Below, in pieces: positions 38,773 through 59,535 of a stretch of 64,000 bases of DNA (positions are counted from its first letter, which is position 1; the number at the start of each line of letters is the position of its first letter). A model generated the notes under the pieces. It was given only the letters and a program-made list of their open reading frames with translations, had not been told where the DNA came from and searched no databases. The position numbers and the translations under genes were made by a program. The DNA comes from Thermoleophilaceae bacterium (GTDB taxonomy: Bacteria > Actinomycetota > Thermoleophilia > Solirubrobacterales > Thermoleophilaceae). The stretch is from contig JAFGJG010000020.1 in the NCBI GenBank assembly GCA_016929195.1, positions 2,722 to 66,721 of the forward strand. The letters are read 5' to 3'.

Positions 38773-40874
38773 GAGGCGGGAGACAATACGACGGCCACGG
38801 CGTCGTCCTGAAGCGGGTCCTCGGCGGCGCTCATCACCGCCTCCTGGATCGACCTGGCCGCCGCCGTCGCGGACGGGCCCCGAGCGGCCGCGAGCGCGCG
38901 GCGGATGCCGTCGATTCCGAACAGGCCCCCGGCGGTGCGGCGTGCGCTGACGCCGTCCGAGTGGAGCACCAGGCGCTCGCCCGCCTCCAGGCGTCGCTGG
39001 CTGCGGGAGAACCTGCGCTCCCGCTCCCACAGGCCGAGCGGCAGCGAGGAGACGGTGCCCAGCTGCTCGACGGATCCGTCCACACCGACCACGAGCGGCG
39101 GAGGGTGCCCGCAGTTGATCCAGCTGAACGTCGAATAGACCGCGTTCCAGCGCGCCACGACGGCGGTGACGAAGAACTCGGGCCGGGAGACGTCGTACAC
39201 CGCCTGATGCATCTTCGCGCCGGCTTCCTCGAGGGTCGCGTCGCTACGGCGAGCCGCCCGGAGCGCCGCCAGCGCGATGCTTCCGAGAGCGGCCGCCGTG
39301 GCGCCCCTGCCGACGGCGTCGGCAACGGCCAGCCATGCGCCGTCGCGGTTCTCCACGTAGTCGAACCAGTCGCCGCCCACCTCGTAGGCGGGCATCACGC
39401 TGCCCGCGATCTCGCCGCCGCCGACCCGGGCGATCCGCGGCGGCAGGAGGCTCTGCTGCAGCTCGGCCGCCGCCTCGGTCTCCTTGCGCCTCCTGGCTGC
39501 GTCGAAGACGTCCGTGTATCCGGCGGCGAGCTCCATGGCCGCCGCGCCGTGGCGGGCGACGTCGGCGAGGGTGTCCTCGGCGGCGCCGAGCGCGAGCAGG
39601 ATGCCCACGGCCCGGCCGCGCACCCACATCGGGGCGAGCGACGCGCCGGGGAGATCCCGGGCGATCCGCTCCCGTAGCTCCGGCACCCCGTCCTCGGCCA
39701 GCTCGGGCCCGAGCGCGAGCGGCGCGTCGAGCCGCTCCGGGAAGTCGTCCGGCCCGGACAGCCGGAGCAGGTGCGTCCCGTCGATGTCGAGCACGTAGAG
39801 GGCCACGGGGCCGCCCGCGATCCGCCGGGCCTCCGAGGCGAACTGCTCCGGGAAGAGGTGAGGGGGGATCTCGTCGAGGATCCGGGCGATGTCCACCGGC
39901 ACGGGGCGGGTGCGCCCGAGGCGTCCCGGCGGCCGGAGGCGCTCGAGCTCCCATCCGCGCTGGGCGGTCACGTCGTAGAGGACGCCGAGGTAGCCGTAGG
40001 GCAGCCCGCCCCGCGGCTCGCGCAGCGGGAGCGCGAACCCCTCGATCCACGCCACCGTCCCGTCGCCGCGCACGTGCCCGCGCACCGCGCTCTGCTCGTC
40101 ACCCGTCCGCACGGAGGCCGCCAGCGGATGCGCGCCCACGGGCGCCGGCGACTCGTCCTCGTAGAGCAGCCGGAGTGGGAGCTCGGACACGCGCTCACCC
40201 ACGGCCGGCTCCGCCGGTGCGAGCATCTCGCTCGCGCGCGGGTTGAGTGAGAGGACCGCGCCGTCGGCGTCCAGCACGATGATCCCCTGGTCGAGGGGCT
40301 CCGTCAGCCGGTCGAACAGCGCCCGCGCCGCGGCGGGCGGGTCGGTCGGCTCGCGGGCACCCGTCGCGAGGCAGGCGTGCACGAGCTGGTTGGACGCCTG
40401 CTCGAGCCACTCGCGCGGCGGCCGCGGAGCGATCTCGGCCGCGGTGGCGACCCGGTCGAGCACCGGCAGGGCGAGCCTGGCCGAGTCGTCGCTCACCTGC
40501 TCGAGCGCCTCCTGTCCGAGCCGGCCCAGCCGGCGCTCGGCGCCGAGCAGGACGAGCCGCTTGACGAACCCGCTGACAACGGCCAGCGGTGGGCGGTCCT
40601 CGTCAGCCGTGGCCATCCGCGCCTCGCGCGAGGCCAGCGCCGCGGCCTGCTCACGCAGCTCGGCCTCGAGTCCCTCGCGCGTGGAGAAGTGCCGGTAGAG
40701 GGTCGAGCGGCTCACGCCGGCCTCGGCCGCCAGCCGGCGCATGTTGATCCGCCCGTCGCGGGCGAGCTGGGCCGCCGCCGCGGACAGGATCAGGGCGCGG
40801 TTCGCCTCCTGATCCGAGCGCGGGCCGCGTCCTGACACAGATGCCCCCGATCGCTCAGACACGGTGTCCGACAT
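38769..40874 (-). CDS. TetR-type HTH / PAS / GAF-like / PP2C (SpoIIE) phosphatase fusion protein
   Basis: ATG at 40874. TetR HTH MRRLAAEAGVSRSTLYRHF. PAS segment (IIVLDADGAVLSLNPRASEML). SpoIIE motifs GGDWFDY, AVADAVGRG, LVLHSDGV, DDAVAVVL. Confidence 0.85.
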   Translation of the reverse strand: MSDTVSERSGASVSGRGPRSDQEANRALILSAAAAQLARDGRINMRRLAAEAGVSRSTLYRHFSTREGLEAELREQAAALASREARMATADEDRPPLAVVSGFVKRLVLLGAERRLGRLGQEALEQVSDDSARLALPVLDRVATAAEIAPRPPREWLEQASNQLVHACLATGAREPTDPPAAARALFDRLTEPLDQGIIVLDADGAVLSLNPRASEMLAPAEPAVGERVSELPLRLLYEDESPAPVGAHPLAASVRTGDEQSAVRGHVRGDGTVAWIEGFALPLREPRGGLPYGYLGVLYDVTAQRGWELERLRPPGRLGRTRPVPVDIARILDEIPPHLFPEQFASEARRIAGGPVALYVLDIDGTHLLRLSGPDDFPERLDAPLALGPELAEDGVPELRERIARDLPGASLAPMWVRGRAVGILLALGAAEDTLADVARHGAAAMELAAGYTDVFDAARRRKETEAAAELQQSLLPPRIARVGGGEIAGSVMPAYEVGGDWFDYVENRDGAWLAVADAVGRGATAAALGSIALAALRAARRSDATLEEAGAKMHQAVYDVSRPEFFVTAVVARWNAVYSTFSWINCGHPPPLVVGVDGSVEQLGTVSSLPLGLWERERRFSRSQRRLEAGERLVLHSDGVSARRTAGGLFGIDGIRRALAAARGPSATAAARSIQEAVMSAAEDPLQDDAVAVVLSPAS

Positions 40875-40963
40875 AAGCGCTCCCTTACCCGCTTCACGGA
40901 TTGACACTCGCCAGGGCGGGCAGGCGAGACAGACCGCAAGTCTGAAAAACGGAGGAGGCATTC

Positions 40964-45379: not shown

Positions 45380-45453
45380 GGTGGGCGTAGCTCAGTTGGT
45401 AGAGCTCCTGGTTGTGGTCCAGGCGGTCGCGGGTTCGAGTCCCGTCGCTCACC
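45380..45453 (+). tRNA. tRNA-His (anticodon GTG) with encoded G-1
   Basis: G-1 plus acceptor GTGGGCG/CGCTCAC (one G-T pair), D arm GCTC-AGTTGGTA-GAGC, anticodon arm CCTGG-TTGTGGT-CCAGG, T loop TTCGAGT, discriminator C. Confidence 0.9.
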
Positions 45454-45509
45454 CTCAAGGGCTGCGAACCGTCGCGCTGCGGCGTCTTCGGTCGCTCGGT
45501 TCTCACGCT

Positions 45510-46582: not shown

Positions 46583-46618
46583 GCCGGTGTCCACGACCAG
46601 AAGGAAGGAAGCAACCGA

Positions 46619-47353
46619 ATGAACTCGCAGAACGAAGCCAGCGTCGTGCTCGTGCACGGTGCCTTTGCCGACGGTTCCTCGTGGGAGGCTGTGATCGCCG
46701 AGTTGCAGCGCGCGGACATACCCGTCACTGCGCCGGCGAATCCACTTCGAGGGGTCGAGCACGACGGCGCGTACATCGCGAGCGTCGCAGGCGAGATCGA
46801 CGGCCCGGTGATCCTTGTCGGCCATTCCTACGGCGGAGTGGTGATCACCCAAGCCGCAGACCGTGCTTCCAACGTCGTCGGACTCGTCTACGTCGCCGCG
46901 TTTGCACTCGACGCCGGGGAGCGCCCGCTCGACGTCATCACCCGGTTCCCGGAGGCCGCAATCGGATCAGCCCTGCGGCCCGCCACGCGGCCGGGCATGG
47001 GCGGCGAGCCGCAGGTCGAGCTGTCCATCGAGCCCGCGCAGTTTCCGAACGTCTTCGGCGCCGACCTTCCGGCGGACAGGACCTCGGTCGGCGCGGTGTC
47101 GCAGCGCCCGGTCGTGGCCTCCGTGTTCGAGGAGGTCTCTCCGGCCGCTGCTTGGAAGCGCCTCCCGTCCTGGTACGTCGTGAGCGGTGAGGATCATGCA
47201 ATCCACCCGGACGCACAGCGCTTCATGGCCAGGCGAGCCGAGGCCACGACGATCGAGACGGATGGCTCCCACTCCGTCGCGCTCTCGCGCCCGGAGGCCG
47301 TCGTGGACGCGATCCGGGCGGCGGTAGCCGTAGTGGTTCCGCAGGCGGTGTGA
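46619..47353 (+). CDS. alpha/beta hydrolase (cytoplasmic paralog)
   Basis: 244 aa. VLVHGAFADGSSW and GHSYGG. Collinear with 45564..46391 but lacks a signal peptide. Confidence 0.85.
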   Translation: MNSQNEASVVLVHGAFADGSSWEAVIAELQRADIPVTAPANPLRGVEHDGAYIASVAGEIDGPVILVGHSYGGVVITQAADRASNVVGLVYVAAFALDAGERPLDVITRFPEAAIGSALRPATRPGMGGEPQVELSIEPAQFPNVFGADLPADRTSVGAVSQRPVVASVFEEVSPAAAWKRLPSWYVVSGEDHAIHPDAQRFMARRAEATTIETDGSHSVALSRPEAVVDAIRAAVAVVVPQAV

Positions 47354-47384
47354 GCCGGCGGCATCCAAGAAGCACTGACCCGGC

Positions 47385-49946
47385 TCAGTCGGCGCGTCCG
47401 AGCGCGTAATCGACCACGCGCGGCAGGTCCATCGCCTGGCCCTCGGTGCGGGCCTGCTGGAACGTCTCGTCAGGCATGTGCGGCGGGGGCAGCGGAGGGG
47501 CCGCGCCGATTGCCTGCAGTCGTGGCCAGAGGCTCCCACCGGCGCCGCCGAGCAGCCGCTCGGCGGCGCCGTCGAGGAAACCCGCGCGCTCGGGGTCGTC
47601 CTGCTCCGCGGCGACTACCGCCAGCGCGCGGAGGAGGTGAGCCGTGCTCGTGACGTAGCCGCTCGCAACGGCCAGGGCGAGCCCGTCGGCCAGTAGCCGG
47701 GTGGCAGAAGCGGCGTCGCCGTTCTCTTCGTGCGCTACGGCGAGGTTGTAGCTCGAGAGCAGGACTGCCAGCGGCGCGCCGGCGCGCCGTGCGTCATCGA
47801 GCGCCGCGGAGTAGAACGCGACGGCATCTGCGTACCGCCCCTCCAGGAACGGGATCTGCCCTCGGAAATTGAGCAGCATCGCTCGCTCCCACGGGAGGTC
47901 TTCGCCGCCCAGGCTCTCCAGTCCTCGGCCGAGCAGCTCCGCCGCGCGCGCATGGTCGCCCTCCAGTGAGGCCAGCTGGGCTTGCGCGGCGAGGATCAGC
48001 ACCAGGTCTGCCGGTCTCCCGCCGTGCTCGAGCAGGGCCACCCCCTGGTCGAGCAGGTTCCCCGCCCTCGCGCCGCCGCGGTCGCGCTGGAACACGAGCT
48101 TGGCTGCCCGAGCGATCACCGCCCCCCGCAGTGCCGGCGGGAGCGAGCCGCCGGTGGTCAGCAGCTGATCCATCCATCGGATCGCCTCTTCGACGTGCCC
48201 GTTCAACCACCAGAAGAGCCACAGGCCTTCGGTCGCCCGTGCCGCACGCTCGCTCTCACAGTGCTCGATGAGCCACGACAGGGCGGCGCGCAGGTTGTCG
48301 TGCTCGGTCTCGAACCACTTGAGCGCAGCGGGTTGGCGCGGACCCCTCAGGTCCGCGCCTCCCTGTTCGGCCAGACGCGCGAAGTGCACCGCGTGGCGGT
48401 TGTGCGCCTCGTCCCAGTCGGGCGTCTGCCGAAGGCGTTCGACCGCGTACTCCGAGATCGTCTCCAACATGCCCAGGCGGGGCGCTGCGGTGCCGCAGTC
48501 CCTTCGAAGCAGACTGCTGTCGACGAGGCCGCCCACTGCGTCGAGGGCCTCGGAGTCGCCGAGATCTGACACCGCCGCCACGGCTTCCAGGTCGAATCCG
48601 CCCGCGAACACGCCGAGACGGTCGAACAGTCCCCGCTGATCAGGACGCAGCTGCTCGTAGCTCCACGAGATCGTGGCGCGAAGCGTCCTCTGACGCTCCG
48701 GCAGGTCCTTTGCCCCGCCGGTCAGGAGGCCCAGCCGGGAGTCGAGCCGCGCGAGTAGTGCGGAAGCGGTCAGCATGGGCATCCTCGCGGCGGCGAGCTC
48801 GAGGGCGAGAGGCAGTCCGTCGAGCCGTCGGGTGATGGCAGCCACTGCCTCCGCGTTCTCGGAGGTGAGCTCGAAGTGCGGGTCTGCGGCGCGCGCCCGC
48901 TCGACGAACAGCTTCACGGCGCCGTAGCGATTGACCGCGGCCGTGGTGGTCTCGACGGCGGGGTCGGGCGTGGGGAGGGGCTGTACTTCGTGGACGTGCT
49001 CGCCGCGAAGGTGCAGTGGAGCCCGGCTCGTCACCAGGGCGCTCACGGCCTCCGTGGAGGCGAGCACATCGGCGAGCACCGGGGCCCCCTCGACCACCTG
49101 TTCGAAGTTGTCCATCACGAGCAGCACGTCGCGCTCGAGGAGGAATGCCTTCACGAGATCGACGGCATCCGCCGTGGCGAGACGCCGGACGCCGAGCGCA
49201 CCCGCCAAGGTGGTGCCGAGGAGCTCGGGATCGGTCACCGCCGTGAGGTCCACGAACGCGACACCGTCCTCGAACTCCGACTTGAGCTGCACGGCGAGCT
49301 CGGCGGCGAGGCGGCTCTTGCCGACTCCTCCCGGGCCGATCAGCGTGACCAAGCGCCGCCCCTGGGCTACGAGCAGGGTGCGTGCTCGGGCGATGTCACG
49401 GTCGCGGCCCACCAGAGGCGTCATGGCCACGGGAACCGCGACCGGCGCGGGCGGCTCGCGTGCGGTGACAGCTCGGCCCGCGGCTTCGAAGTTCTCGCTG
49501 AGCAGCACGGCGAGGTCGTTGGCAACCAGCCGTCGCAGCTCGGCCGGCGTCGCGAACCGCTGGTATGAGGTGCGGCCGTCCTCCCGAACCCGTGCGAGCA
49601 TGTCTCCGAGCCGCGGCTCGCGGTGAGGGGCCGGATGCTTGACGTAGACGAGCTTGGGCAGGTTGCCGGCGCGGCGGTATTCGTCCTCCAGCGCCGAGAC
49701 CCCCTCCCCGGGCGGGACGTTCCCGTAGCTCTGCCAGTAGACGCCGATGAACACCTGGCTCTGAGAGAGATAGGACCGGTAGACGTCGCGCGCCGGGTGC
49801 GCTCGCGCGCCGGCCTCGAACATCACCGGCGTGAGATGCAGACGCTTGATCGCGGCGCGCACGGCGTCCCGCTCCGCGGCCAGTTCACGCAGCGTGGAGC
49901 TCACGAAGACCCGCAGGCGCTGGTCCGGGGTGGCTATGCGTGTCAC
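47385..49946 (-). CDS. DUF4062 (TIR-like) / NB-ARC STAND ATPase / TPR-repeat protein
   Basis: The GTG at 49946 overlaps the upstream stop (GTGA). N-terminus RVFVSSTLRELAAERDAV...VFIGVYWQSYG. P-loop GPGGVGKSRLA. Walker B LLVMDNFE. NB-ARC GLPLALE motif. About 350 aa of C-terminal helical repeats. Confidence 0.85.
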   Translation of the reverse strand: MTRIATPDQRLRVFVSSTLRELAAERDAVRAAIKRLHLTPVMFEAGARAHPARDVYRSYLSQSQVFIGVYWQSYGNVPPGEGVSALEDEYRRAGNLPKLVYVKHPAPHREPRLGDMLARVREDGRTSYQRFATPAELRRLVANDLAVLLSENFEAAGRAVTAREPPAPVAVPVAMTPLVGRDRDIARARTLLVAQGRRLVTLIGPGGVGKSRLAAELAVQLKSEFEDGVAFVDLTAVTDPELLGTTLAGALGVRRLATADAVDLVKAFLLERDVLLVMDNFEQVVEGAPVLADVLASTEAVSALVTSRAPLHLRGEHVHEVQPLPTPDPAVETTTAAVNRYGAVKLFVERARAADPHFELTSENAEAVAAITRRLDGLPLALELAAARMPMLTASALLARLDSRLGLLTGGAKDLPERQRTLRATISWSYEQLRPDQRGLFDRLGVFAGGFDLEAVAAVSDLGDSEALDAVGGLVDSSLLRRDCGTAAPRLGMLETISEYAVERLRQTPDWDEAHNRHAVHFARLAEQGGADLRGPRQPAALKWFETEHDNLRAALSWLIEHCESERAARATEGLWLFWWLNGHVEEAIRWMDQLLTTGGSLPPALRGAVIARAAKLVFQRDRGGARAGNLLDQGVALLEHGGRPADLVLILAAQAQLASLEGDHARAAELLGRGLESLGGEDLPWERAMLLNFRGQIPFLEGRYADAVAFYSAALDDARRAGAPLAVLLSSYNLAVAHEENGDAASATRLLADGLALAVASGYVTSTAHLLRALAVVAAEQDDPERAGFLDGAAERLLGGAGGSLWPRLQAIGAAPPLPPPHMPDETFQQARTEGQAMDLPRVVDYALGRAD

Positions 49947-52052
49947 GGATCCGTTGCGTCCGCGACCGTCCCGTTCCGGAGAGCCGCGTCGAGCTGGGAT
50001 CGCGACGTGATCGCAAGCTTCGGAAAGACCCGGTGCAGGTGCGAACTGATAGTCCGATGCGACAGATAGAGCCGTTGGCCGATCTCCTTGTTGCTGAGCC
50101 CTTCGGCGGCCATCTGGGCGATCTGCAGCTCCTGCGGAGTGAGCTGATCGCGAACATCGGGGGTCAGGACCCGGAGGGTCTCGCCCGATGCGCGCAGCTC
50201 CTGACTGGCGAGCGCGGACCAGGGAGAGGTTCCGAGTGCGTGAAAGGCTTCGCGCGCGGAGCGGAGAAAGGCGCGCGAGTCGGCAGGCCGGCGGCGGCGG
50301 CGCAACCACTCGCCGTAGGCCAGCTGGATCCGGGCGCGCAGGAACGGCCATCGCCTCATGTCCTCAGTCAGCGCGGCATCGAACAGAGATTCGGCATGTT
50401 CGTCGTCGGCGAGCAGGGCACGTGCGTAGAGCAGGCTGGCCAGTAGGCCGGGGACCGGGAGACGGGTGGCGAGCCCTTCCAGCTCCGCGACGATCGGGCG
50501 AGCGACCTGATGCTGGCCACTGCGCGACGCGGCCTCCGCCAGGTCAGCGGCGGTGAAGCTGCGGCTCGAATAGTGGTGCGCTGGGTCGCTGGGATCGTGG
50601 ACCCGGCACAGATGCTCGAGGGCGGCTGCCGGCCGCCCGTCGGCCAGGGCGGCGATGCCGCGGGCGTGCTGGGCGGCGCAGAGCAGCGCAGCGGCGCCGA
50701 TCGGCGCGCCCACCGCCTCGGCAGCGGCGATCAGCACCTCCGCGCGGGGCGTGTCGCCGCGCAGTGCGGCCGCGATCGCTTGGCCTGTCTGTGCCACGGC
50801 CGCGATCAAGGGCTGTTCGGTTTCCCTGGCCAGCCGCTCCGCCTCCTCTGCGGCGGCTGCGGCCATCTGCAGGTTCGCGAGTTGCCCAGCACTCATCGCC
50901 TGGAAGGCGAGCCTGCGGCTGAGCGCGCCGAGATGCCCCTGGAGGCGAAGCTCGCCGTTCGCGGCGCCGAGCAGCGGCCTTGGCGATCTCGAATGCGCCG
51001 ACGGCGGCCGCCGCAAGCGATGTGAAGCTGGCGCTCTCCGCGTGACCATGCTCGCCGGAGACCCCCTGGAGCCACGTGACCACCTTCGTACCGCGCTCGA
51101 TCGGGGCTGCGAAGGCGAGGATGGCCAGCAGGCGCGAGTCTCGTCCCTGCGCGCCGAGACCGTCCGCGATGCTCACGATCCGGTCGCGCACGTCCGATCC
51201 CGAGTCCGACCACCAGCAGTGCATGGCGGCGCACAGGAGAAGGTTGATCGCCAGGTCGCGCTCGCCGCGGCGAACAGTGTGCTCGGCCATGAGGATGAGG
51301 GCTGGGATGCGATGACCTCCGGCGCCGGCCTCTTTTTCGAGCAGCCCGCGCAGCCATAACAGACGCGCCTGCCCGTCCGGTCCCAGCGGCAGCCGTTCCG
51401 CGAGCGCGAGAAGGCGGTCGACCGAACCCTCGCCGTGGATCTCATAGGAGAGCTCCGCGGCACGAAGGAGTCGTGCGGCGCGCGACGCCGGATCGGGGCT
51501 GACCTGGGCAGCCCCCTCAAGCGCGGTGATCGCGGCGGTCGGAGAGCCTCGCCGGGAGGCCGCGGCCGCTGCGGCTTCGAGGTCGGCGGCAGCGGCCTCA
51601 TCTGGACTCGTCAGCGAAGCGGCCCGATGCCACGCGCGGCGCTCGCGCTGATCCTGGAGCACGCTCGCGAGCGCTGCATGGGCGCCCTGCCGGCGCCCAG
51701 CGGCGGCCGATTTCTGGACCGCGGCTCGCATCAGGGGATTGCTGAACCGGACTCTTCCGTCCTCGACGTCGATCAGCCCCGCCTCGACGGCGGCGGGAAC
51801 AGCAGCGTCGACCCGCTCCCGGCCGAGCACGCCCGCCGTGGCCTCGACTACTTCATCGAGCCCGCCTCCTTCGTCGGCGGCAGCTACGAGAAGCAGCATC
51901 CGGATGTCATCGGGTAGCCGCCTGACCTGGTCGGCCAAAGCCTGCTCCAAGCGGCCGGTGAGGGTCCGGCCACCCGGCGCCGGCGAGGGGGAATCCTTGG
52001 AGTGGTCCCAAGAGCGGGACAGATCCGGCTCGTCATCGACAAGGAATGACAT
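49943..52052 (-). pseudogene. decayed LuxR/LAL-family regulator (no P-loop region, frameshift near 50975)
   Basis: Frame 1 (52052 down to about 50980) carries the post-ATPase and TPR part (RRLPDDIRMLLLVAAA...). Frame 2 (about 50975 down to 49943) carries more TPR plus the LuxR HTH (LTPQELQIAQMAAEGLSNKEIGQRLYLSHRTISSHL). Only a Walker-B-like remnant FLVDDEPDL is left at the N-terminus. Confidence 0.6.
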
Positions 52053-52100
52053 GGCTCACCCGGATTGATAGAGTTGAACTCCAGTGACAAGAGATGTTGT

Positions 52101-52117
52101 CTAGAGCAAGACTCTAG
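52101..52117. promoter_or_regulatory. candidate operator palindrome upstream of the TetR gene
   Basis: CTAGAG-CAAGA-CTCTAG lies in the only AT-richer stretch of the 52053..52133 divergent intergenic region, 17 nt before the TetR ATG. Confidence 0.25.
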
Positions 52118-52133
52118 CGAGTAGAGAAGATGT

Positions 52134-52763
52134 ATGTCAAGCGAAGCCTCGAACGATGATCAATTCCGGAGCCGGCGTGACGAGTACGCGGAGGTAACGC
52201 GTCGCGCCGTCGTTGCTGCCGCGCGCGAGCTATTCGGCGAGAAGGGCTACTCGAGCACGACCGTTCAGGAGATCTCGCGACGGGCGCGTGTCTCGCCTGC
52301 AACCGTCTATGCGCAATGCGGCGGCAAGCAGGGACTGCTCGAAAGCCTGATGGACGCCTGGACTGCGGGCGCGTTGGTCCGCGAGATCATCGACTCCTGC
52401 GCGATGGCCCGAACGGGGGCGGAGAGGCTTCAGGTGCTCGCCGACGGCTACCTGAAGATCTTCGAGACATCCGGCGACATCATCCGCATCGTGACCGACG
52501 CGGCCGCCACTTCCCCGGTAGCGGCCGAGTTCCTCGGGACTGCGAACACCCGGCATCACCAGGCCCTGCTCGAGATCGTGGCGCAGATCCGCGAGTCCGG
52601 CGACCTGATTGAGGGTCTGTCGGACGAGGACGCCGCCAACATCATCTTCTTCCACTTCCGGGCCGAGCAGTTCATGCTCGCGGCGTATGGCTTCGGGTGG
52701 GGTGAGGCTCGAACGCGCGACTGGCTTCGCGAACGCATCGAGTCGGCCATCTTGAAGCGGTAG
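52134..52763 (+). CDS. TetR/AcrR family transcriptional regulator
   Basis: 209 aa. HTH STTVQEISRRARVSPATVYAQCGGKQGLL. Confidence 0.9.
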   Translation: MSSEASNDDQFRSRRDEYAEVTRRAVVAAARELFGEKGYSSTTVQEISRRARVSPATVYAQCGGKQGLLESLMDAWTAGALVREIIDSCAMARTGAERLQVLADGYLKIFETSGDIIRIVTDAAATSPVAAEFLGTANTRHHQALLEIVAQIRESGDLIEGLSDEDAANIIFFHFRAEQFMLAAYGFGWGEARTRDWLRERIESAILKR

Positions 52764-52818
52764 CGCCCGCGAGTGGCTCGGCCGGGCGAGGCGAACTGAC
52801 GCGGCCGCGGCGGCCGTG

Positions 52819-53085
52819 CTAGCGACCCGTGCGCTCGCGGTGGCTGCAGCCCGGCCAGCAGCAGGGTCGGCGCTGGCCCTCCTCGAGCTCCTCCTGGGTC
52901 CGGCGAATGCGGCGCTCCCGGGTCGGCTCCCGCTTGGCGTCCTCGACCCAGCAGATGAACTCGTTGCGAGCCAGGGGCGTGATGTCCTTCCATGCCTCGA
53001 GTGCCGTGGTGTTGGCGATCAGCGCCTCGCGCAGATCCGTGGGCAGCTTGTGGACCACTCCACCGGGCACTCGCTGGGTGCTCAC
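52819..53085 (-). CDS. YdeI/OmpD-associated family protein
   Basis: 88 aa. LPTDLREAL...AWKDITPLARNEFICWVEDAKREPTRERRI is typical of this family. Confidence 0.7.
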   Translation of the reverse strand: MSTQRVPGGVVHKLPTDLREALIANTTALEAWKDITPLARNEFICWVEDAKREPTRERRIRRTQEELEEGQRRPCCWPGCSHRERTGR

Positions 53086-53209
53086 AGGGCCACGGTAGCG
53101 GGCTCGCGCTCGGTCCCGGTGCGGTCATTCGGGTCCGCGCTCCTCTGGCGTCGACTACTCTCATTGGTGAGGGAATTTTTCTCGGTCCGATGGAACCAGG
53201 AAGGCCTTA

Positions 53210-53386
53210 GTGAAGACACAGCGGGAACGAGCCGAGGCGCGCCGTCAATTGAAGCTGGCGGACGTCCGGGATCAGGTCGAGCGTGGCACGCTCACCATCA
53301 GGAAGATGACGGCGAAGGAGAGCGCCGCGCTCCCGCCCCGCCCCCGAGGCGAGCGGCCTCGGGGCACCAGGTCGCGCTGGGCCTGA
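53210..53386 (+). CDS. possible small basic protein (58 aa, below the ORF-track cutoff)
   Basis: GTG at 53210 with AGGAAGG 6 nt upstream. VKTQRERAEARRQLKLADVRDQVERGTLTIRKMTAKE... The Arg/Pro-rich tail weakens the call. Confidence 0.3.
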   Translation: MKTQRERAEARRQLKLADVRDQVERGTLTIRKMTAKESAALPPRPRGERPRGTRSRWA

Positions 53387-53396
53387 GCCGGCACCG

Positions 53397-54794
53397 TCAG
53401 TCGGTGTTGACGCTGAGCACGAACATGTCCTTGTTGTCCGGTTCCGAGGCGGAGTAGGCCGCGGTGCCCGGGTACTGGACGGTGCCGAACACCACCCCCG
53501 CCATCACCAGCCGCCCGCCGGGCGCCGGCGCGATCTCGCCGGCCACGGTCCGGACGTCGGTCTGACTCGGGCTCGACACCCATAGGAGCCGCCCCGCCGG
53601 GTCGTATTTCGCGATGAAGGCGCGGGTGGCGCCGGCGCTCAGCGTGGACCCGGGTCCGCCGGTGGACGAGAACTTGGTCGGGCCGGTGTACGAGCCCGTG
53701 ACGTAGAGATTGCCCGCGGCGTCGGTGACGTTCTCGCCGCCCAGGATCGCGCTCGCGCTCGTGATCGCGTTGGCCCAGCGCGGGGTACCGTCCGGGCCGA
53801 GCCGCGCCACGAAGGTGCCCGCCGCGTCGCCGTCGCCCTGGACGCTCACACCGCCGCCGAATGACATCGTGCCCGTGAACGTCCCGGACAGGAACGCGTC
53901 GCCACCGGCGTCGCCGGCGATCCCGCGCCCGACGTCCTCCACCCCCGCGGTCCCGTACACCGCGGAGTCGAGCACGGCTCCGCTCGCACCGTCGAGACGG
54001 GCGGTCCAGACGTCGAAGGCGCGGCCGGCGATCGAGTAGCTGTCGGAGCCGATCGTCGTGGCGCCGAAGGCCTCGCCGGTCACGACCACGGCACCGCCGC
54101 CGGTCGTCTCGATCCCGCGGGCGCGCTGGCGGCCGGAGCCGCCGATCTTCCGCGTCCACACGCGCGTCCCGTCGGGCCGGAACTTGATGACGAACGAATC
54201 GATGTCGCCGTCGTTCGCCCAGGTGACGGCGCCGTCGCTGAACGGACCGTTCGAGAGCGCGAGCACGTAGACGTTCCCGGCCGCGTCGGTCTCCACCTCG
54301 TTGCCGCCGTCCTCGGCGGCGCCGCCGAGCCGGCGCACCCACTGGGTGGATCCCGCCGCGTCCTGCTTGACCAGCGCCATGTCGTGCCCGCCGGCGCTGA
54401 CGGCGGTGCATCCGGCGCAGGCGCCGAAGCTCACCGTCTGCCCGAACCAGCCGCTCAGGTAGGTCGCGTCGGACGGGCCGGTGGTCGAGTCGAAGATCGC
54501 ATCGTCCGCGCCGGCGCCGTACGTGGCCACCGAGATGAGCGCGCCGGCCGGCGTGTAGCGGGCCACGAACATGTCCTCGCCACCCGCAGCGGTGCGGGTC
54601 TGCGTCCCCCAGGTGGCGGTGCGCAGGAACTTGCCCGCCACGATCACGCGCCCGCCGCTGTCCGCCGAGATGCCGTCGGCCTCGTCCTCCTGGGTCGGCC
54701 CGCCGGAGCCGGCCAGCCAGTTGTAGGTCGGCGCGCAGCCCGCCAAGGTCGCCACGGCGACGGCGGACGCGAGCAGTGCCGGGAGGCGCGTCAT
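53397..54794 (-). CDS. lipoprotein with beta-propeller (SBBP-like) repeats
   Basis: ATG at 54794. Lipobox AVATLAGC. Recurring D-x-F-V/L-A/V-K/R-Y/L-x-x-x-G units (DMFVARYTPAG, DMALVKQDAAG, DSFVIKFRPDG, DVWTARLDGASG, TFVARLGPDG, AFIAKYDPAG). Confidence 0.8.
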   Translation of the reverse strand: MTRLPALLASAVAVATLAGCAPTYNWLAGSGGPTQEDEADGISADSGGRVIVAGKFLRTATWGTQTRTAAGGEDMFVARYTPAGALISVATYGAGADDAIFDSTTGPSDATYLSGWFGQTVSFGACAGCTAVSAGGHDMALVKQDAAGSTQWVRRLGGAAEDGGNEVETDAAGNVYVLALSNGPFSDGAVTWANDGDIDSFVIKFRPDGTRVWTRKIGGSGRQRARGIETTGGGAVVVTGEAFGATTIGSDSYSIAGRAFDVWTARLDGASGAVLDSAVYGTAGVEDVGRGIAGDAGGDAFLSGTFTGTMSFGGGVSVQGDGDAAGTFVARLGPDGTPRWANAITSASAILGGENVTDAAGNLYVTGSYTGPTKFSSTGGPGSTLSAGATRAFIAKYDPAGRLLWVSSPSQTDVRTVAGEIAPAPGGRLVMAGVVFGTVQYPGTAAYSASEPDNKDMFVLSVNTD

Positions 54795-54825
54795 CAGCGC
54801 AGCTTGGCGTGGCGGCGAGGCCAGG

Positions 54826-55401
54826 TCAATGGAGGGCGGGCCGGTAGACGAGCTCCTGGGTGTTGCCGTCGAGCGTCCGGCTCTCGAGCAGCTCCAGGTC
54901 GAAGTCGGCCGCACCCTGGAAGATCGGGTCAAGCCCGGTCTGGCCGGTGATCACGGGGAAGAGCGTCACCTGCACGCGGTCGACGAGGCCGGCTGCCATC
55001 AGCGCCCGGTTCATGGCCAGGCTGCCGTGCGAGCGCAACGGCACCGCGGACTCCTCCTTGAGCCGGGCGACGACGTCGACGGCATCCCCGCTCACGACGG
55101 TCGCGTCGGGCCAGTCGAGGGGCTCCTCCAGGGTCGTCGACACCACCGTCGCCGGCAGGCTCCTCATCCGGGTGACCCACGGGTCGCGCACCTCGGACTC
55201 CGCGGTGCTCGAGGCCAGCATCCGCGCGAACGCCCGGTACGTGTTGGCCCCGAAGACCATCCGCTGCTCCGCGTCGTACGAGGCAAGGCGGTGGTCGAGC
55301 AGCTCCGGGCCCTGCTTGCCCCAGTAGCCGGTCCAGTCGCCGCCGGCGGCGCCGTAGCCGTCGAGGCTGGAGAAGACGTCGAAGGTGTACGTGGCGGTCA
55401 T
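54826..55401 (-). CDS. dihydrofolate reductase family protein (RibD C-terminal domain)
   Basis: From MTATYTFDVFSSLDGY. LRSHGSLAMNRALMAAGLVDRVQVTLFPVITG pattern. Confidence 0.85.
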   Translation of the reverse strand: MTATYTFDVFSSLDGYGAAGGDWTGYWGKQGPELLDHRLASYDAEQRMVFGANTYRAFARMLASSTAESEVRDPWVTRMRSLPATVVSTTLEEPLDWPDATVVSGDAVDVVARLKEESAVPLRSHGSLAMNRALMAAGLVDRVQVTLFPVITGQTGLDPIFQGAADFDLELLESRTLDGNTQELVYRPALH

Positions 55402-55466
55402 GCCGTTCTCCTCGAGTGGGTTGATCGGTGTGCCTACAGACCGGGTCACGCTGCGAGACTCATCGC

Positions 55467-55868
55467 GTGCCCTACACCCTGAGGAACCTGAGGGACGATC
55501 TGGACGACGTGGGGTCGAACTTCGACGGCGCGCCGGACCTGGAGTTCCGGCTCGCGACCGACGCGCTGGAGCTCGAGCGGTCCGGGCTGAGCTACCAGCG
55601 CGTCCCGCCCGGCTATCGCTTCCCGTACGGCCACACGCACAGGCAGCAGGAGGAGGTGTACGTGGTCGTGCGGGGCAGCGGGCGGATGAAGCTCGACGAC
55701 GAGATCGTCGAGCTCAGGGAGTGGGACGTCGTGCGCGTCCCGCCCGGTACGTGGCGGGGCTACGAGGCCGGGCCGGACGGCCTCGAGATCCTCGTCTTCG
55801 GAGCGCCCAGCCTCGGCGGAGCCCGGCGCGATGACGTGGAGGGCCGGCGCGACTGGTGGGCCGACTAG
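55467..55868 (+). CDS. cupin domain-containing protein
   Basis: GHTHRQQEEVYVVVRGSG ... VRVPPGTWRGYEAG. GTG at 55467 preferred over the ATG at 55428, which would crowd the divergent gene. Confidence 0.75.
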   Translation: MPYTLRNLRDDLDDVGSNFDGAPDLEFRLATDALELERSGLSYQRVPPGYRFPYGHTHRQQEEVYVVVRGSGRMKLDDEIVELREWDVVRVPPGTWRGYEAGPDGLEILVFGAPSLGGARRDDVEGRRDWWAD

Positions 55869-55930
55869 GGACGACGTCGGAAGCACAGCGATGGGCGGCG
55901 ACGATTTGCTCGTCGTTCCTGGTGCTGCCC

Positions 55931-58900
55931 TCACCGACCCCGGCCGGCGCGCCGGGAAAGCGTCCGGGCGTAGGCGTTCTGAGTCTCGACAAGCCACGTC
56001 GTCGATCCCATCCTGCCGTTCATGTCGAGAGCGGTCTCGTAGTGTCCGGTGGCGACGTCGAGATCGCCTCGATGCTCGGCCAGAAGCCCCAGCGGTCGCC
56101 CGACCGATCCGAGCGACGCCTCGCCTACCGCTATCGCATTGAGCTGCTCGTGGGGAAGCAGCAGGTCGTACAGAGGCCCCGCCGCTTGATCGTGTCCAAC
56201 GGTCGCGCAGGTCTCGGCCAGGAGGGCGACGCTGAAGAGCCACTCCTCGTCGACGTGCCAATCCGCCAGGCCGTGTGCCAACAACTCGTCGAGGCTGTTC
56301 GCCGCCTGTCGGCTTCTGCCGGCCGCGGCGTGCAGATACGCCGTGACCGCGCCATACGCGAGCGGCTCCGATACCGCTTCGCCCGGCGTTCGCGTCTCTG
56401 TCTCGAACTGGTCGAGGCGGCCTTGGAGACGCCGGAGCATGAACTTCTGGAAGAAGTGAGCGACCCTCGCGTTCCAGCCTTGTGTCGCTTCGCCCACGGT
56501 GACCGCGCTCTCGACGAGCGACTCGGCCTCGTCCAAACGCCCCTCGTCGAGTGCCAGGACCCCGCGCGCGAGCCCGAGCAGCCACAGCTGTGAGGGCTGT
56601 CGCAACTGGTCGGCCGCCCGCTCCATCGCCGCCAACTGACGGTCGCGCTCCGGTCGGTCGCCGAGCTCCCAGGCGCACCAATAGAGATGCTCGTGCCCGT
56701 CGAACAGGCGCTCACCGTCCCCGATCTGCTCGGCCAAGACGAGGATCTCCTTGCCCTCCGCGTAGCGCCGGTGCACGGTGTGCGGACTGAACAAGGCCGC
56801 TTCGGCAGCGGCCAGCGCGTACGCGAGGGCGGCAGGGTCCTCGAGCCGCCGGGCGCACGCGATGGCCTCCTCGCAGATCGGCTCGCGCTGCGCGCGTGAA
56901 GCCTCGTCGCGCAGGGCCGCCGCGAGGCGGGAGAGCAACTGGACGCGCAGGATGCTGTCCTCCTCGCCGATGGCTCGAAGCGCCTCCTCGACGAGCGGGA
57001 CCAGCTGGCTGTCGCTCACCGAGCGCTGCCAGAGAAACCGACCGCCGTATCCGACCGCGGCTCGCGCGAGCGCCTCGGGTGCGCCACTGGCGGACGCTTG
57101 GCGGGCCGCCGTCAGGAAGGTGCCCTTGGCCGCCTGAAGGCTCCCGGCCCTGCCCTGGGCATCGCCCAGGCTCAGGAGCAATTCGAGTCGCGCCCGGCTA
57201 TCGGGCTGCGTCCCGGCTGCGAGCGCCTCCAGGGCCGCCTCATAGAGGCGCACCGCTTCCTCGAAGGCCAACAGAAGCGCGGCCCGCTCCGCCGCGCGCG
57301 TCGCGTACTCAACCGCCTTCTGGGAATCCCCTCCTGCCACCGCGGCGCCGAAGTGATGCGCAATCTCCGCCAGACGCGGGTCGAGGTCGCCGGCGTGGAG
57401 CTCCTCGAGAGCCTGACCGACCTCGCGGTGAAGCTGGATTCGCCGCCGCCGGGGAAGGCCGTGATACGCCGCATCGCGGATCAGCGCATGGCCGAAACGC
57501 ATCCGCCCCGGCGCGCCGGGAACCTCGGCGACGACCCGGACCTCCAGTGCCTCGTCGAGGAGCACCAGCATCTGGTCGCGGCCGGTACCGCTGACGGCCC
57601 CCAGCGCGTCGAGATCGAACTCGCGCCCGAGGACCGACGCGACTTCAAGCAGGGCTCGGCACTCCTGCGACAGGCTGCGCAATCGACGACCGATCACGTC
57701 ACGCACCGTTTGGGGGATGGCGATCGGACCGGTGGGCGGTCGCTCAAGACGATGCTCAGCGGCGAGCAGCCGGACCATCTCCGCCACGAACAGCGGGTTC
57801 CCCGCGGTCTCGGCATGAATCGTGCGAGCCCAATCCGCTGCCGGCGCGGTGGGCGATACCAGCTCGATGAACTCGCCCACCTCCGTAGCCGCGAGCCCGG
57901 CCAGGTCGATCTTGTGGGTCACGGCCTCACGCGCCAGCTCTCCCAAGGAGCCGGCCAACGGCTCCGCCAACGACGGGTCGAGGTCGCGGTAGGTCGCGAC
58001 GACCAGCAGCCGGCTCCGAGCGATGTCGCGGGCGACGAACTGGAGCAGCAGCAACGAGGGCTCATCAGCTCCGTGCAGGTCCTCGAGCACCAATAGGACG
58101 GGCTGCACCGAGGCGATCCCCCGAAGCAGCTCCGCCACCGCGTCGAAGAGCCGGAAGCGAGCCCCGTCCGCGTCGCCGGCGCCAGCCGCAGGGAGGTTGG
58201 GGATCACTTCCCGAAGCTCCGGCAGGAGCTGTGCGAGATCGCTCGCTCTCTCACCCAGTTGAACCCGGAGCACCTCTGGGTCGGCCCCGTGAAGGTAGGA
58301 GCGGAGCGCCTGCACCCACGGCCAGTAGGCGGGGGCACCTCCAGCCTCCCAGCACCGGCCGACCAGCACGAGCCCGCCCTGCGATGGGACCCGAGCGACC
58401 AGCTCCTCCGCCAGCCGACTCTTGCCGATTCCGGGTTCCCCGCCGACGAGGAACAACGACCCGCGCCCGGCGACCGCGGCCTCGAAGCCGCTGGTCAATG
58501 CCGCCAGCTCGGACGCGCGTCCTACCAAGCGCCTACCCGGCCTTCCCTCGCTCGACGGTCCACTCCCCGACGTGCTCAGGCCGCCCGGGCGTGACCAGTC
58601 AAGCGACGGGTCTTGGATGAGCACCGCCTGCTCGAGTTGGCGGAGGTCGTTGCTCGGCTCGAGACCGAGCTCGGCGACGAGCGCCGAGCGCCGAGAGCGA
58701 TAGACCTGCAGGGCGTCCGCCTGCCGCCCCGACCGATAGAGGGCGAGCATCAGCTGTCGCGTCACACGGTCGCGGAGCGGCTGCTCGCGCGCGAGTCGCT
58801 CGAGCTCAGGGACGAGGTCGGCATGGCGTCCGAGCGCAAGGTCGGCCTCGGTCCGCAACTCGAGAGCAATCAGGCGCCGCTCGGTGAGCTGCTCGGCCTC

Positions 58901-59368: not shown

Positions 59369-59535
59369 CCGCACGAGGGACCGGAGCCTACGGCCCAGCG
59401 CCCCGGCGCGACCCCAGCTGCCGCGATCAGGGAGCCTGCCGCGGCCGCCGGCAAGACGTCGCTGGCGGGGGCGTTGAGCAGAGCGTCCCGGCCGCATAGG
59501 CTCCACGCATCACGAGTCATGCACGAGGGGAGTCA

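What the first reader, a model, noticed from the sequence alone, without database searches (positions are those of the whole stretch)
47385..49946. DUF4062(TIR-like)-NB-ARC-TPR protein: an NLR-architecture candidate conflict/immune sensor
The N-terminal 130 aa or so (RLRVFVSSTLRELAAERDAVRAAIKRL...SQVFIGVYWQSYG...LPKLVYVK) match the DUF4062 pattern (hhhSST..-L..ER, then hhG.RYG). As far as I recall, DUF4062 is grouped with TIR-like/STIR folds and has no assigned function. It is followed by a STAND NTPase with P-loop GPGGVGKS, Walker B LLVMDNFE and the hallmark NB-ARC GLPLALE motif, then about 350 aa of TPR-like repeats. This is the tripartite effector-switch-sensor logic of plant TIR-NLRs and of bacterial Avs/bNACHT-type antiphage proteins. 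The other STAND proteins in this window put a DNA-binding domain (BTAD/wHTH or LuxR HTH) at the effector position, whereas this one has a non-DNA-binding, possibly nucleotide-processing domain. It lies in the tRNA-His-adjacent variable segment and is translationally coupled to a decaying regulator gene. I cannot tell from sequence alone whether it signals, degrades NAD-like nucleotides or regulates.
Basis: partly seen in the sequence, partly recalled or inferred. Interest (0 to 1): 0.75.

Follow-up and report, generated by a model that had tools for sequence, protein, structure and literature searches.

The report
NLR-like NAD-cleaving sensor protein
This gene encodes an intact three-part switch protein (DUF4062 TIR-like NAD-cleaving domain, NB-ARC-type ATPase, TPR repeats); 2026 preprints showed this kind of protein works as an NAD-depleting anti-phage sensor, so it is an untested member of a known class rather than a new system.

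Summary
Window 47385-49946 (minus strand) is an intact 853-aa gene with a full-length DUF4062 domain, an NB-ARC-type STAND ATPase and about 340 aa of TPR repeats. The P-loop, Walker B and GLPLA motifs are all present.

Three 2026 preprints show that DUF4062 (renamed NIR) is a TIR-like NADase, and that a DUF4062-STAND-TPR Avs2 protein defends by depleting NAD+. The catalytic Glu-Tyr (E89-Y90), the preceding E87 and F14 are conserved here and near-invariant in the family.

The protein belongs to a large chromosomal clade:
- About 628 clusters at 50% identity, and at least 593 loci in species-representative genomes.
- It spans Actinomycetota, Chloroflexota, Acidobacteriota, Bacteroidota and Cyanobacteria.
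- It has no conserved neighbour gene and sometimes occurs in tandem arrays.
- Conservation falls from effector (62%) to NTPase (about 46%) to sensor (about 25%).

Other evidence does not point to defence. There is no PADLOC/Avs match, and no defence-island signal in the window or in 48 homologous loci. No copies were found on plasmids, phages or viral contigs. The ATPase-TPR part is closest to AfsR, PknK and LuxR-type regulators.

Verdict: a new, untested member of a known kind. The biochemistry is likely; the immune role is plausible but unproven.

The parts
47385..49946 (-). Whole gene: 853-aa DUF4062-NB-ARC-TPR protein (stop codon 47385-47387, GTG start 49944-49946)
   Evidence: It is 100% identical to NCBI 'DUF4062 domain-containing protein [Thermoleophilaceae bacterium]'.
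49482..49919 (-). DUF4062 / NIR TIR-like domain (residues 10-155), the predicted NADase effector
   Evidence: Pfam PF13271 E 1.4e-18. The AF2 model has pLDDT 87 with five strands and five helices. A family profile hits KpSwz DUF4062 in the PDB at E 9.8e-6. Foldseek finds DNPH1, plant TIR domains and SARM1.
49677..49697 (-). Active-site motif S84-A-L-E87-D-E89-Y90; E89-Y90 is the predicted catalytic Glu-Tyr
   Evidence: E87 is present in 120 of 120 and E89 in 119 of 120 family members. The motif aligns to the KpSwz E97 region and to the Eva01 E87-Y88 motif.
49422..49481 (-). Poorly conserved, low-confidence linker (residues 156-175)
   Evidence: pLDDT is below 50. Mean pairwise identity is 21%.
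48957..49421 (-). Nucleotide-binding domain of the STAND ATPase (residues 176-330). It holds the P-loop (49314-49337), Walker B (49101-49124) and TSR sensor motif (49023-49031).
   Evidence: Pfam AAA_22 and NB-ARC, motif positions, AfsR profile match at E 4e-19.
48417..48956 (-). ARC / winged-helix part of the NB-ARC module (residues 331-510), including GLPLALE (48798-48818)
   Evidence: Foldseek on the full model finds 6mfv, RPP1, Apaf-1, CED-4, Sr35 and ZAR1.
47388..48416 (-). TPR-like superhelical repeat region (residues 511-853), the predicted ligand sensor
   Evidence: Helical repeats in the AF2 model, mostly with pLDDT around 90. The profile matches LGN and kinesin light chain TPRs at E 1e-15 to 2e-17. 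This is the least conserved part of the family, at 24-28% identity.
49943..52052 (-). Upstream remnant of a LAL-type LuxR regulator (two overlapping ORFs, 50544-52052 and 49943-51049). Its stop codon overlaps the start of the target gene.
   Evidence: The GerE HTH scores E 1.2e-15. The two ORFs align to residues 285-619 and 622-949 of an intact LAL protein. This implies one frameshift and loss of the roughly 284-aa N-terminal ATPase.
52111..52140 (-). Promoter-like site upstream of the LuxR remnant; it might drive a shared transcript with the target gene
   Evidence: TTGACA-18-TAGAGT, 10 of 12 matches. This is a consensus match only, not shown to function.

Best explanation
The gene encodes a single-protein, NLR-like, ligand-gated NADase.

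**Proposed mechanism.**
1. At rest, the NB-ARC-type ATPase is closed and the TPR superhelix holds it shut.
2. A ligand binds the TPR region. Most likely this is a protein of an invading phage or other foreign element.
3. Binding allows nucleotide exchange and oligomerisation of the ATPase.
4. Oligomerisation brings the N-terminal DUF4062 (NIR) TIR-like domains together and opens their active sites.
5. [quoted passage not shown]
6. The NAD+ pool collapses and the cell stops growing or dies (abortive infection).

**Shown here.** The three domains are present and intact. All ATPase motifs and the DUF4062 catalytic motif are conserved. The gene stands alone.

**Taken from the literature.** DUF4062 is an NADase, and a DUF4062-STAND-TPR Avs2 protein defends by NAD+ depletion.

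**Inferred.** Activation by oligomerisation, the nature of the ligand, and the immune role of this particular clade.
For: **Architecture and motifs.**

**Link to characterised DUF4062 proteins.** The N-domain profile hits the solved KpSwz DUF4062 at E 9.8e-6, and TEP1 weakly. F14, E87 and E89-Y90 are near-invariant in 120 homologues. They correspond to Eva01 F11 and E87-Y88 and to KpSwz E97.

**Literature.**
- PsAvs2 (DUF4062-STAND-TPR) depletes NAD+ on phage infection, and its E108Q mutant is dead.
[quoted passage not shown] **STAND fold.** Foldseek on the full model finds an archaeal STAND-TPR protein (6mfv), the TIR-NLR RPP1, Roq1, Apaf-1 and CED-4.

**Family behaviour typical of NLR-like conflict genes.**
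- Conservation falls from effector (62%) to NTPase (45-47%) to TPR (24-28%).
- Tandem paralogue arrays of up to four copies occur.
- No conserved neighbour gene was found across 80 loci.
- The context varies even within a genus.
- The family is spread across five phyla, in loci with 37-76% GC.

**Local context.** Third-position GC is lower than in the flanking core genes. The closest homologue lies near an integrase, an HNH nuclease and a WYL regulator.
Against: - There is no PADLOC hit, so the protein does not match the Avs1-5 models.
- Neither the window (22 neighbours) nor the +-2 genes at 48 homologous loci show defence systems. The neighbours are ordinary metabolic and regulatory genes.
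- No DUF4062-bearing copy was found on 72,556 plasmids, 50,697 phage records or IMG/VR contigs.
- The ATPase-TPR part is 33-41% identical to PknK-like kinases, SARP and LuxR regulators. These are usually regarded as physiological signalling proteins.
- The window copy has substitutions in the conserved BB-loop (P49A, P52A) and next to the catalytic site (G85A, L92R).
- One preprint reports that three isolated prokaryotic TEP1-like domains showed no NADase activity in vitro.
- No activity was measured here.
Confidence: 0.6

Rival explanations
1. The protein is a physiological, non-immune switch. The TPR-ATPase part senses an endogenous metabolite or stress signal, as MalT, AfsR and PknK-type STAND proteins do. 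It then uses the NADase to lower NAD+ and impose dormancy, developmental arrest or programmed cell death in filamentous or multicellular-type bacteria.
For: - The ATPase-TPR part is closest to AfsR (profile E 4e-19). It is also 33-41% identical to PknK-like kinases, SARP and LuxR proteins over residues 180-850.
- One homologue also carries an adenylate cyclase domain (P0066).
- Neighbours are housekeeping or regulatory genes, with no defence-island signal.
- The family is chromosomal only.
- The effector domain is unusually well conserved.
Against: - The distribution is patchy.
- The genomic context is not conserved even within a genus.
- Tandem paralogue arrays occur.
- The sensor region is strongly divergent.
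- There is no conserved regulon partner.
- Every bacterial DUF4062 protein tested so far acts in phage defence.
Confidence: 0.22
2. The N-domain acts on a substrate other than bulk NAD+. It could be a nucleotide N-glycosidase like DNPH1 or a CMP hydrolase. Alternatively it could make a signalling nucleotide, as Thoeris and plant TIR domains do.
For: - The top Foldseek matches for the N-domain include DNPH1, with TM-score up to 0.75, slightly better than the TIR domains.
- The same domain in Avs2 was first annotated as a CMP hydrolase.
Against: [quoted passage not shown]
- No conserved downstream effector gene is present that could read a signal molecule.
Confidence: 0.1
3. The window copy is a decaying or inactive relic, carried along in a degrading locus next to a broken regulator gene.
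For: - The upstream LuxR gene is truncated and frameshifted.
- No promoter-like site lies directly upstream of the target gene.
- The copy deviates at 6 of 116 columns that are at least 90% conserved, against a median of 3. These include P49A, P52A, G85A and L92R.
- The nearest relative is only 55% identical.
Against: - The 853-codon frame is intact with a clear coding GC pattern.
- All catalytic and ATPase motifs are present.
- The number of deviations is not an outlier; five of the 84 sequences deviate at more columns than the window copy and others tie with it.
Confidence: 0.08

Closest known systems
PsAvs2, the NIR(DUF4062)-STAND-TPR Avs2 protein of Pseudomonas chlororaphis (Le Mouellic et al. 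2026, bioRxiv 10.64898/2026.09.04.749371)
   Same: It has the same three-part order: an N-terminal DUF4062 NADase, a central STAND ATPase and C-terminal TPR repeats. It is also a single gene with a conserved catalytic Glu.
   Different: The window protein matches no PADLOC Avs model. Its ATPase is of the NB-ARC / AfsR type. It comes from Thermoleophilia, in a clade spread over Actinomycetota, Chloroflexota, Cyanobacteria and others. Its trigger is unknown, whereas PsAvs2 senses phage terminase. It shows no defence-island context.
Swarozyc (KpSwz) and Evangelion (Eva01), single-gene DUF4062 defence proteins
   Same: They share a homologous DUF4062 domain (profile E 9.8e-6 to KpSwz), with the same F...SS and E-Y motifs.
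   Different: Those proteins have no STAND ATPase. They carry a short auxiliary domain and sit on plasmids or in defence islands. The window protein is about 2.5 times longer and chromosomal.
Plant TIR-NLRs (RPP1, Roq1, WRR4A)
   Same: They have a TIR-like NAD-cleaving domain, an NB-ARC ATPase and a repeat sensor, and are activated by oligomerisation. They appear among the Foldseek matches of the full model, with E from 1e-9 to 6e-6.
   Different: Their effector is a canonical TIR domain rather than DUF4062. Their sensor is LRR rather than TPR. Sequence identity is about 14-20%.
AfsR / SARP, PknK-like kinases and LAL (LuxR) regulators of actinomycetes
   Same: They share the same ATPase-TPR part. 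AfsR matches at profile E 4e-19 over residues 160-518. The others are 33-41% identical over residues 180-850.
   Different: Their output domain is DNA-binding or a protein kinase, not an NADase.
Human TEP1, NWD1 and NWD2 (DUF4062/TeTIR-NACHT-WD40)
   Same: They have a DUF4062-family NADase at the effector position of a STAND protein.
   Different: They use a NACHT rather than an NB-ARC ATPase, and WD40 rather than TPR repeats. Their DUF4062 domain is extended. The profile match to TEP1 is only weak (E 0.055).

Membership tests
DUF4062 / NIR TIR-like NADase domain (Pfam PF13271) | Significant full-length match to the PF13271 profile | tested here: met
   E 1.4e-18, 67.3 bits against a cut-off of 24.7, profile positions 1-82 of 82.
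DUF4062 / NIR TIR-like NADase domain (Pfam PF13271) | Five-stranded parallel beta-sheet with flanking helices (a TIR / nucleoside deoxyribosyltransferase-like fold) | tested here: met
   The AF2 N-domain model has pLDDT 87 with alternating strands and helices. Foldseek finds DNPH1, RPS4/RRS1, RUN1, RPV1 and SARM1, with TM-scores of 0.5-0.75. Generic flavodoxin and Ras folds score similarly.
DUF4062 / NIR TIR-like NADase domain (Pfam PF13271) | Conserved catalytic glutamate (KpSwz E97, PsAvs2 E108, Eva01 E87-Y88) and the N-terminal aromatic residue (Eva01 F11) | tested here: met
   F14, E87 and E89-Y90 are present and near-invariant in the family. They align to the KpSwz active-site region. Which Glu is catalytic (E89 or E87) is inferred, because the deposited KpSwz chain appears to carry the E97A mutation.
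DUF4062 / NIR TIR-like NADase domain (Pfam PF13271) | NAD+ hydrolysis to ADP-ribose and nicotinamide | not testable with these tools
   This needs a biochemical assay.
NB-ARC (AP-ATPase) clade of STAND NTPases | P-loop, Walker B, sensor motif, GxP (GLPLA) motif and a winged-helix domain, with a profile match | tested here: met
   The motifs are at residues 204-211, 275-282, 306-308 and 377-383. Pfam NB-ARC scores 23.5 bits, exactly at the cut-off, so it is borderline. The family profile matches AfsR (E 4e-19) and the plant NLRs Sr35, ZAR1 and ADR2. Foldseek finds Apaf-1 and CED-4. An MHD-type His was not examined.
Avs (antiviral STAND, types 1-5) | Match to the Avs protein models used by PADLOC | tested here: not met
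   The only PADLOC hit is mad8 at E 0.015 on the P-loop. The library dates from 2023 and predates the NIR systems.
Avs (antiviral STAND, types 1-5) | Effector, STAND ATPase and C-terminal repeat sensor in one polypeptide | tested here: met
Avs (antiviral STAND, types 1-5) | Activated by a conserved phage protein; protects against phage | not testable with these tools
   This needs phage challenge or co-expression experiments.
Defence-island resident gene | Enriched next to known defence systems or carried on mobile elements | tested here: not met
   In the window, only 2 weak single-component hits were found among 22 neighbours. At 48 homologous loci, the +-2 genes gave only scattered generic hits. 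No copy was found on plasmids, phages or viral contigs. This is limited to raw HMM hits, without system calling, a +-10-gene window or a background control.

The most novel reading that the evidence does not exclude
This large chromosomal clade may not be an anti-phage system at all. It could be an endogenous NAD+ 'kill or dormancy switch'. In this reading, the same ATPase-TPR sensor that drives transcription factors (AfsR, LAL), kinases (PknK) and cyclases in actinomycetes is wired to an NADase. A self-derived metabolite or developmental signal would then trigger NAD+ collapse. This would be a bacterial counterpart of SARM1-type physiology, found in bacterial phyla that include many filamentous or multicellular forms.
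Probability: 0.2. Interest if true: 0.7.

Novelty: new member of a known kind. Interest (0 to 1): 0.4.

Why it matters
All tested bacterial DUF4062 NADases come from Proteobacteria or Firmicutes and sit in defence islands or on plasmids. This clade makes up roughly a fifth of detectable DUF4062 sequence clusters (628 of 3308). It uses a different ATPase type, the plant-NLR/Apaf-1-like NB-ARC, which it shares with actinomycete regulators. It also sits among ordinary chromosomal genes.

Testing one member would answer two questions. First, does the NIR-NLR defence principle extend to Actinomycetota, Chloroflexota and Cyanobacteria? Second, can the same sensor architecture serve either regulation or NAD+-depleting cell suicide? 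It would also give the closest bacterial analogue of a plant TIR-NB-ARC receptor.

The idea itself is already published, so the gain is incremental.

Tried and rejected
- **Exact-sequence look-up of window proteins in public assemblies.** I wanted strain variants to test presence/absence, but the target and the aldehyde dehydrogenase are not on record. Nor is the Synechocystis homologue. Presence/absence among close relatives could therefore not be tested.
- **Integration at tRNA-His.** No second copy of the tRNA 3' end was found and there is no integrase nearby. Insertion of a mobile element at the tRNA is therefore not supported.
- **Single-sequence search of solved structures.** This found only P-loop noise from Clp ATPases. 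Profiles were needed to get real matches.
- **Foldseek on the N-domain.** The PDB library stops in April 2026 and lacks the KpSwz and TEP1 entries. TIR and DNPH1 matches are mixed with generic flavodoxin and Ras folds. On its own this is weak evidence.
- **A conserved partner gene.** All-against-all clustering of 1064 neighbour proteins found only large generic families: short-chain dehydrogenases, ABC transporters, response regulators, alpha/beta hydrolases, MFS transporters and sigma factors. An apparent link with alpha/beta hydrolases (7 of 80 loci, and also in L081) was judged to be chance plus local shared ancestry.
- **The upstream 299-aa gene in the closest homologue's locus.** It is unrelated to the window's upstream gene.
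- **My early impression that the TPR sensor is highly conserved.** This came from one densely sampled soil clade. It was withdrawn after the analysis of 84 genome copies.
- **Pseudogene reading of the target.** Considered and judged unlikely.
Full report
**1. The observation**

The window has about 71% GC, which fits an actinomycete. On the minus strand an ORF ends at 47385. Its longest form begins at ATG 50351. However, the stretch above 49946 overlaps, in another frame, a LuxR-type gene that has strong homology right up to its stop at 49943. The start that fits the homologues is GTG 49946-49944, which overlaps that stop codon as GTGA. Codon-position GC is 0.78/0.50/0.86, a clear coding signal.

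Pfam results:
- DUF4062: E 1.4e-18, covering the whole profile on residues 12-93.
- AAA_22: above its cut-off.
- NB-ARC: exactly at its cut-off (23.5 bits) on residues 189-431.
- TPR_12 and TPR_MalT: below their cut-offs.

The quoted motifs are all present: RVFVSST 12-18, SALEDEY 84-90, GPGGVGKS 204-211, LLVMDNFE 275-282, TSR 306-308 and GLPLALE 377-383. The protein is identical to an NCBI entry from a Thermoleophilaceae MAG, annotated only as 'DUF4062 domain-containing protein'.

**2. Structure**

A full-length AlphaFold2 model built on 50 homologues has mean pLDDT 81.6. It shows:
- an alpha/beta N-domain (residues 12-155);
- a disordered linker (156-175);
- a P-loop ATPase with helical and winged-helix parts;
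- a helical repeat superhelix from 511 to 848.

Residues 377-418 are modelled with low confidence.

Foldseek against the PDB finds an archaeal STAND-TPR protein first (6mfv, E 2.6e-13). Next come the plant TIR-NLR RPP1, Apaf-1, Sr35, ZAR1, Roq1 and CED-4. A sequence profile of the family matches AfsR (8k60/8jke, E 4e-19 over residues 160-518). It also matches TPR proteins such as LGN and kinesin light chain (E 1e-15 to 2e-17) and several plant NLRs.

The N-domain modelled alone has pLDDT 87 and pTM 0.84, with five strands alternating with five helices. Its Foldseek matches are modest (E 1e-4 to 3e-3, TM-score 0.5-0.75). They mix DNPH1, plant TIR domains (RPS4/RRS1, RUN1, RPV1), SARM1 and TIR-STING with generic flavodoxin and Ras folds. 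That PDB library predates the DUF4062 structures.

The sequence copy of the PDB does contain those structures. The N-domain profile hits KpSwz DUF4062 (10wc/11cq/11cv) at E 9.8e-6, and TEP1 (11gz) weakly at E 0.055.

**3. What DUF4062 is now known to be**

Three 2026 preprints change the background.
- Osinski et al. show that DUF4062 is a TIR-like NADase. KpSwz ('Swarozyc') is activated by a phage portal protein, needs E97, and depletes NAD+. Human TEP1 is also active.
- Le Mouellic et al. rename the domain NIR. They show that an Avs2 protein with the order DUF4062-STAND-TPR (PsAvs2) defends by NAD+ depletion and needs E108. [quoted passage not shown] They find that NIR genes lie near defence systems in 20% of cases against 3.9% expected.
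- Ibarra-Chavez et al. describe Evangelion and point to conserved F11 and E87-Y88.

A fourth preprint on TEP1-like 'TeTIR' domains notes that three isolated prokaryotic domains were inactive in vitro.

In the window protein the corresponding residues are F14 and E89-Y90, with a second acidic residue at E87. Across 120 homologues, E87 is present in 120 and E89 in 119.

The HMMER alignment pairs E87 with a Glu of KpSwz. But the deposited KpSwz chain reads ...SFTEK-A-FDY, and the Ala sits where the E97A mutation of the 15-C construct would fall. I therefore take E89 as the catalytic residue. This mapping is an inference, but both candidate residues are conserved.

**4. The family**

Full-length homologues at 46-55% identity number in the thousands. 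They occur in many orders of Actinomycetota, in Chloroflexota, Acidobacteriota and Bacteroidota, and an 'uncultured bacterium' MAG. A Synechocystis protein is also among the homologues. The loci range from 37% to 76% GC.

An exhaustive search of 1.84 billion cluster representatives with the N-domain alone gave 3308 hits at E <= 1e-3 and 628 at E <= 1e-30. The best 150 are mostly 840-1130 aa long. This clade is therefore a major DUF4062 lineage.

Among 84 genome copies, mean pairwise identity is:
- 62% in the N-domain;
- 45-47% in the ATPase;
- 24-28% in the TPR region.

A conserved effector with a divergent sensor is the usual pattern for NLR-like receptors. Several genomes carry tandem arrays: four copies in an Agromyces, three in two MAGs, and two in others.

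The window copy differs from the family at 6 of 116 strongly conserved columns (P49A, P52A, G85A, L92R, P394A, L432Q), against a median of 3. This is elevated but not an outlier.

**5. Genomic context**

All-against-all clustering of 1064 neighbour proteins from 80 loci and the window found no conserved partner. The commonest neighbour family is present in only 12 loci. The top families are generic: short-chain dehydrogenases, ABC ATPases, response regulators, alpha/beta hydrolases, MFS transporters, sigma factors and similar. Even loci from the same genus share only 4-5 of about 16 neighbours. The gene therefore stands alone and moves between contexts.

I found no defence-island signal:
- The target has no PADLOC match.
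- Among 148 proteins within +-2 genes at 48 loci, there are only scattered PADLOC hits, several of them to broadly distributed domains such as protein kinases, alongside ordinary Pfam families.
- Among 22 window neighbours over about 33 kb, there are two weak single-component hits.
- The window neighbourhood holds two alpha/beta hydrolases, a TetR regulator, a propeller-like protein, a SARP regulator, an aldehyde dehydrogenase and a sigma factor. There is no integrase.
- No DUF4062-bearing copy is on any PLSDB plasmid, and none was found in GenBank phages or IMG/VR contigs.

On plasmids, residues 180-850 instead match PknK-like protein kinases, SARP and LuxR proteins at 33-41% identity. The ATPase-TPR part is therefore shared with signalling regulators. 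One homologue adds an adenylate cyclase domain in front of DUF4062.

The closest homologue (55% identity) lies between alpha/beta hydrolases. It is 7 kb downstream of an intact LAL regulator and has an integrase, an HNH nuclease and a WYL regulator a few genes downstream.

**6. The upstream gene and the 'variable segment'**

The two overlapping ORFs upstream of the target align end to end with that intact LAL regulator. Residues 22-357 of ORF 50544-52052 match LAL residues 285-619 (42% identity). Residues 26-353 of ORF 49943-51049 match LAL residues 622-949 (46% identity).

The window copy has therefore lost the roughly 284-aa N-terminal ATPase and carries one frameshift.

A promoter-like site lies upstream of the remnant at 52140-52111, and none lies directly before the target. 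Co-transcription is possible but not shown.

Most genes between 46.6 and 59.5 kb have third-position GC of 0.81-0.86, against 0.92-0.97 for the flanking genes. This fits a mosaic, acquired segment beside tRNA-His. However, there is no att repeat.

**7. Interpretation**

The best-supported reading is a single-protein, NLR-like, ligand-gated NADase. Ligand binding to the TPR region releases the NB-ARC switch. Oligomerisation then brings the DUF4062 domains together, and NAD+ is hydrolysed until growth stops.

- The domain content and residue conservation are shown here.
- The chemistry is taken from homologues in the preprints.
- The activation route, the ligand and the immune role are inferred.

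The main rival is a physiological switch that responds to an endogenous signal. The regulator-like ATPase-TPR part and the ordinary chromosomal context favour it. The patchy distribution, tandem arrays, divergent sensor and shifting context argue against it.

Less likely rivals are a different substrate or a signalling product, suggested by the DNPH1-like fold matches, and an inactive relic.

**8. Novelty and score**

The kind, a DUF4062/NIR effector on a STAND-repeat receptor, was published in 2026, so this is not a new system. What remains new is an untested, very large clade outside Proteobacteria. It has an NB-ARC/AfsR-type ATPase and no defence-island association.

I rate it a new member of a known kind, with interest 0.4.

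Noticed in passing
window 49943-52052 (-): This is a LAL-type LuxR regulator remnant. It has lost the roughly 284-aa N-terminal ATPase and carries one frameshift near 50990-51040. The two pieces align to residues 285-619 and 622-949 of an intact orthologue in locus L081.
   Followed up: yes
window 55931-59506 (-): A 1191-aa SARP-type regulator (Trans_reg_C + BTAD + AAA_16). It is a second STAND-like protein in the same lower-GC3 segment, and its output domain is DNA-binding.
   Followed up: partly
window 38769-40961 (-): A 730-aa protein that combines a TetR-type HTH, PAS domains and a SpoIIE/PP2C phosphatase domain. Fusing a DNA-binding domain to a phosphatase is unusual.
   Followed up: no
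P0066 (homologue from a JGI metagenome, 1096 aa): A class III adenylate cyclase domain sits in front of DUF4062-NB-ARC-TPR. That would put two different nucleotide-processing output domains on one STAND sensor.
   Followed up: no
L020 9839-22392; L042 7489-17868; L050 5543-12655: These loci hold tandem arrays of two to four family paralogues, in an Agromyces genome and in two MAGs. In L020 all four copies carry the DUF4062 domain. In L042 and L050 one copy each lacks it as called.
   Followed up: partly
L081 16733-21587: A tyrosine integrase, an HNH nuclease and a WYL-domain regulator lie a few genes downstream of the closest homologue (55% identity). This is the only mobile-element or defence-like context seen for the family.
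   Followed up: no
L082 1-1099 (Rhodococcus opacus plasmid pR1CP1): A gene pair encoding a RES-family NAD+ phosphorylase and an HTH protein lies next to the PknK-like kinase that shares the ATPase-TPR part. An NAD-targeting toxin beside a related STAND protein is probably a coincidence.
   Followed up: no
window 46600-59500: Most genes in this segment have third-position GC of 0.81-0.86, against 0.92-0.97 in the flanking genes. One interior gene (53397-54932, weakly beta-propeller-like) has 0.93. This suggests a mosaic of acquired and resident DNA next to tRNA-His (45381-45454).
   Followed up: partly
window 52111-52140 (-) and 52046-52074 (+): Two divergent promoter-like sites lie in the 80-bp gap between the TetR gene and the LuxR remnant. 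The TetR protein might control the transcript that runs into the DUF4062 gene.
   Followed up: no
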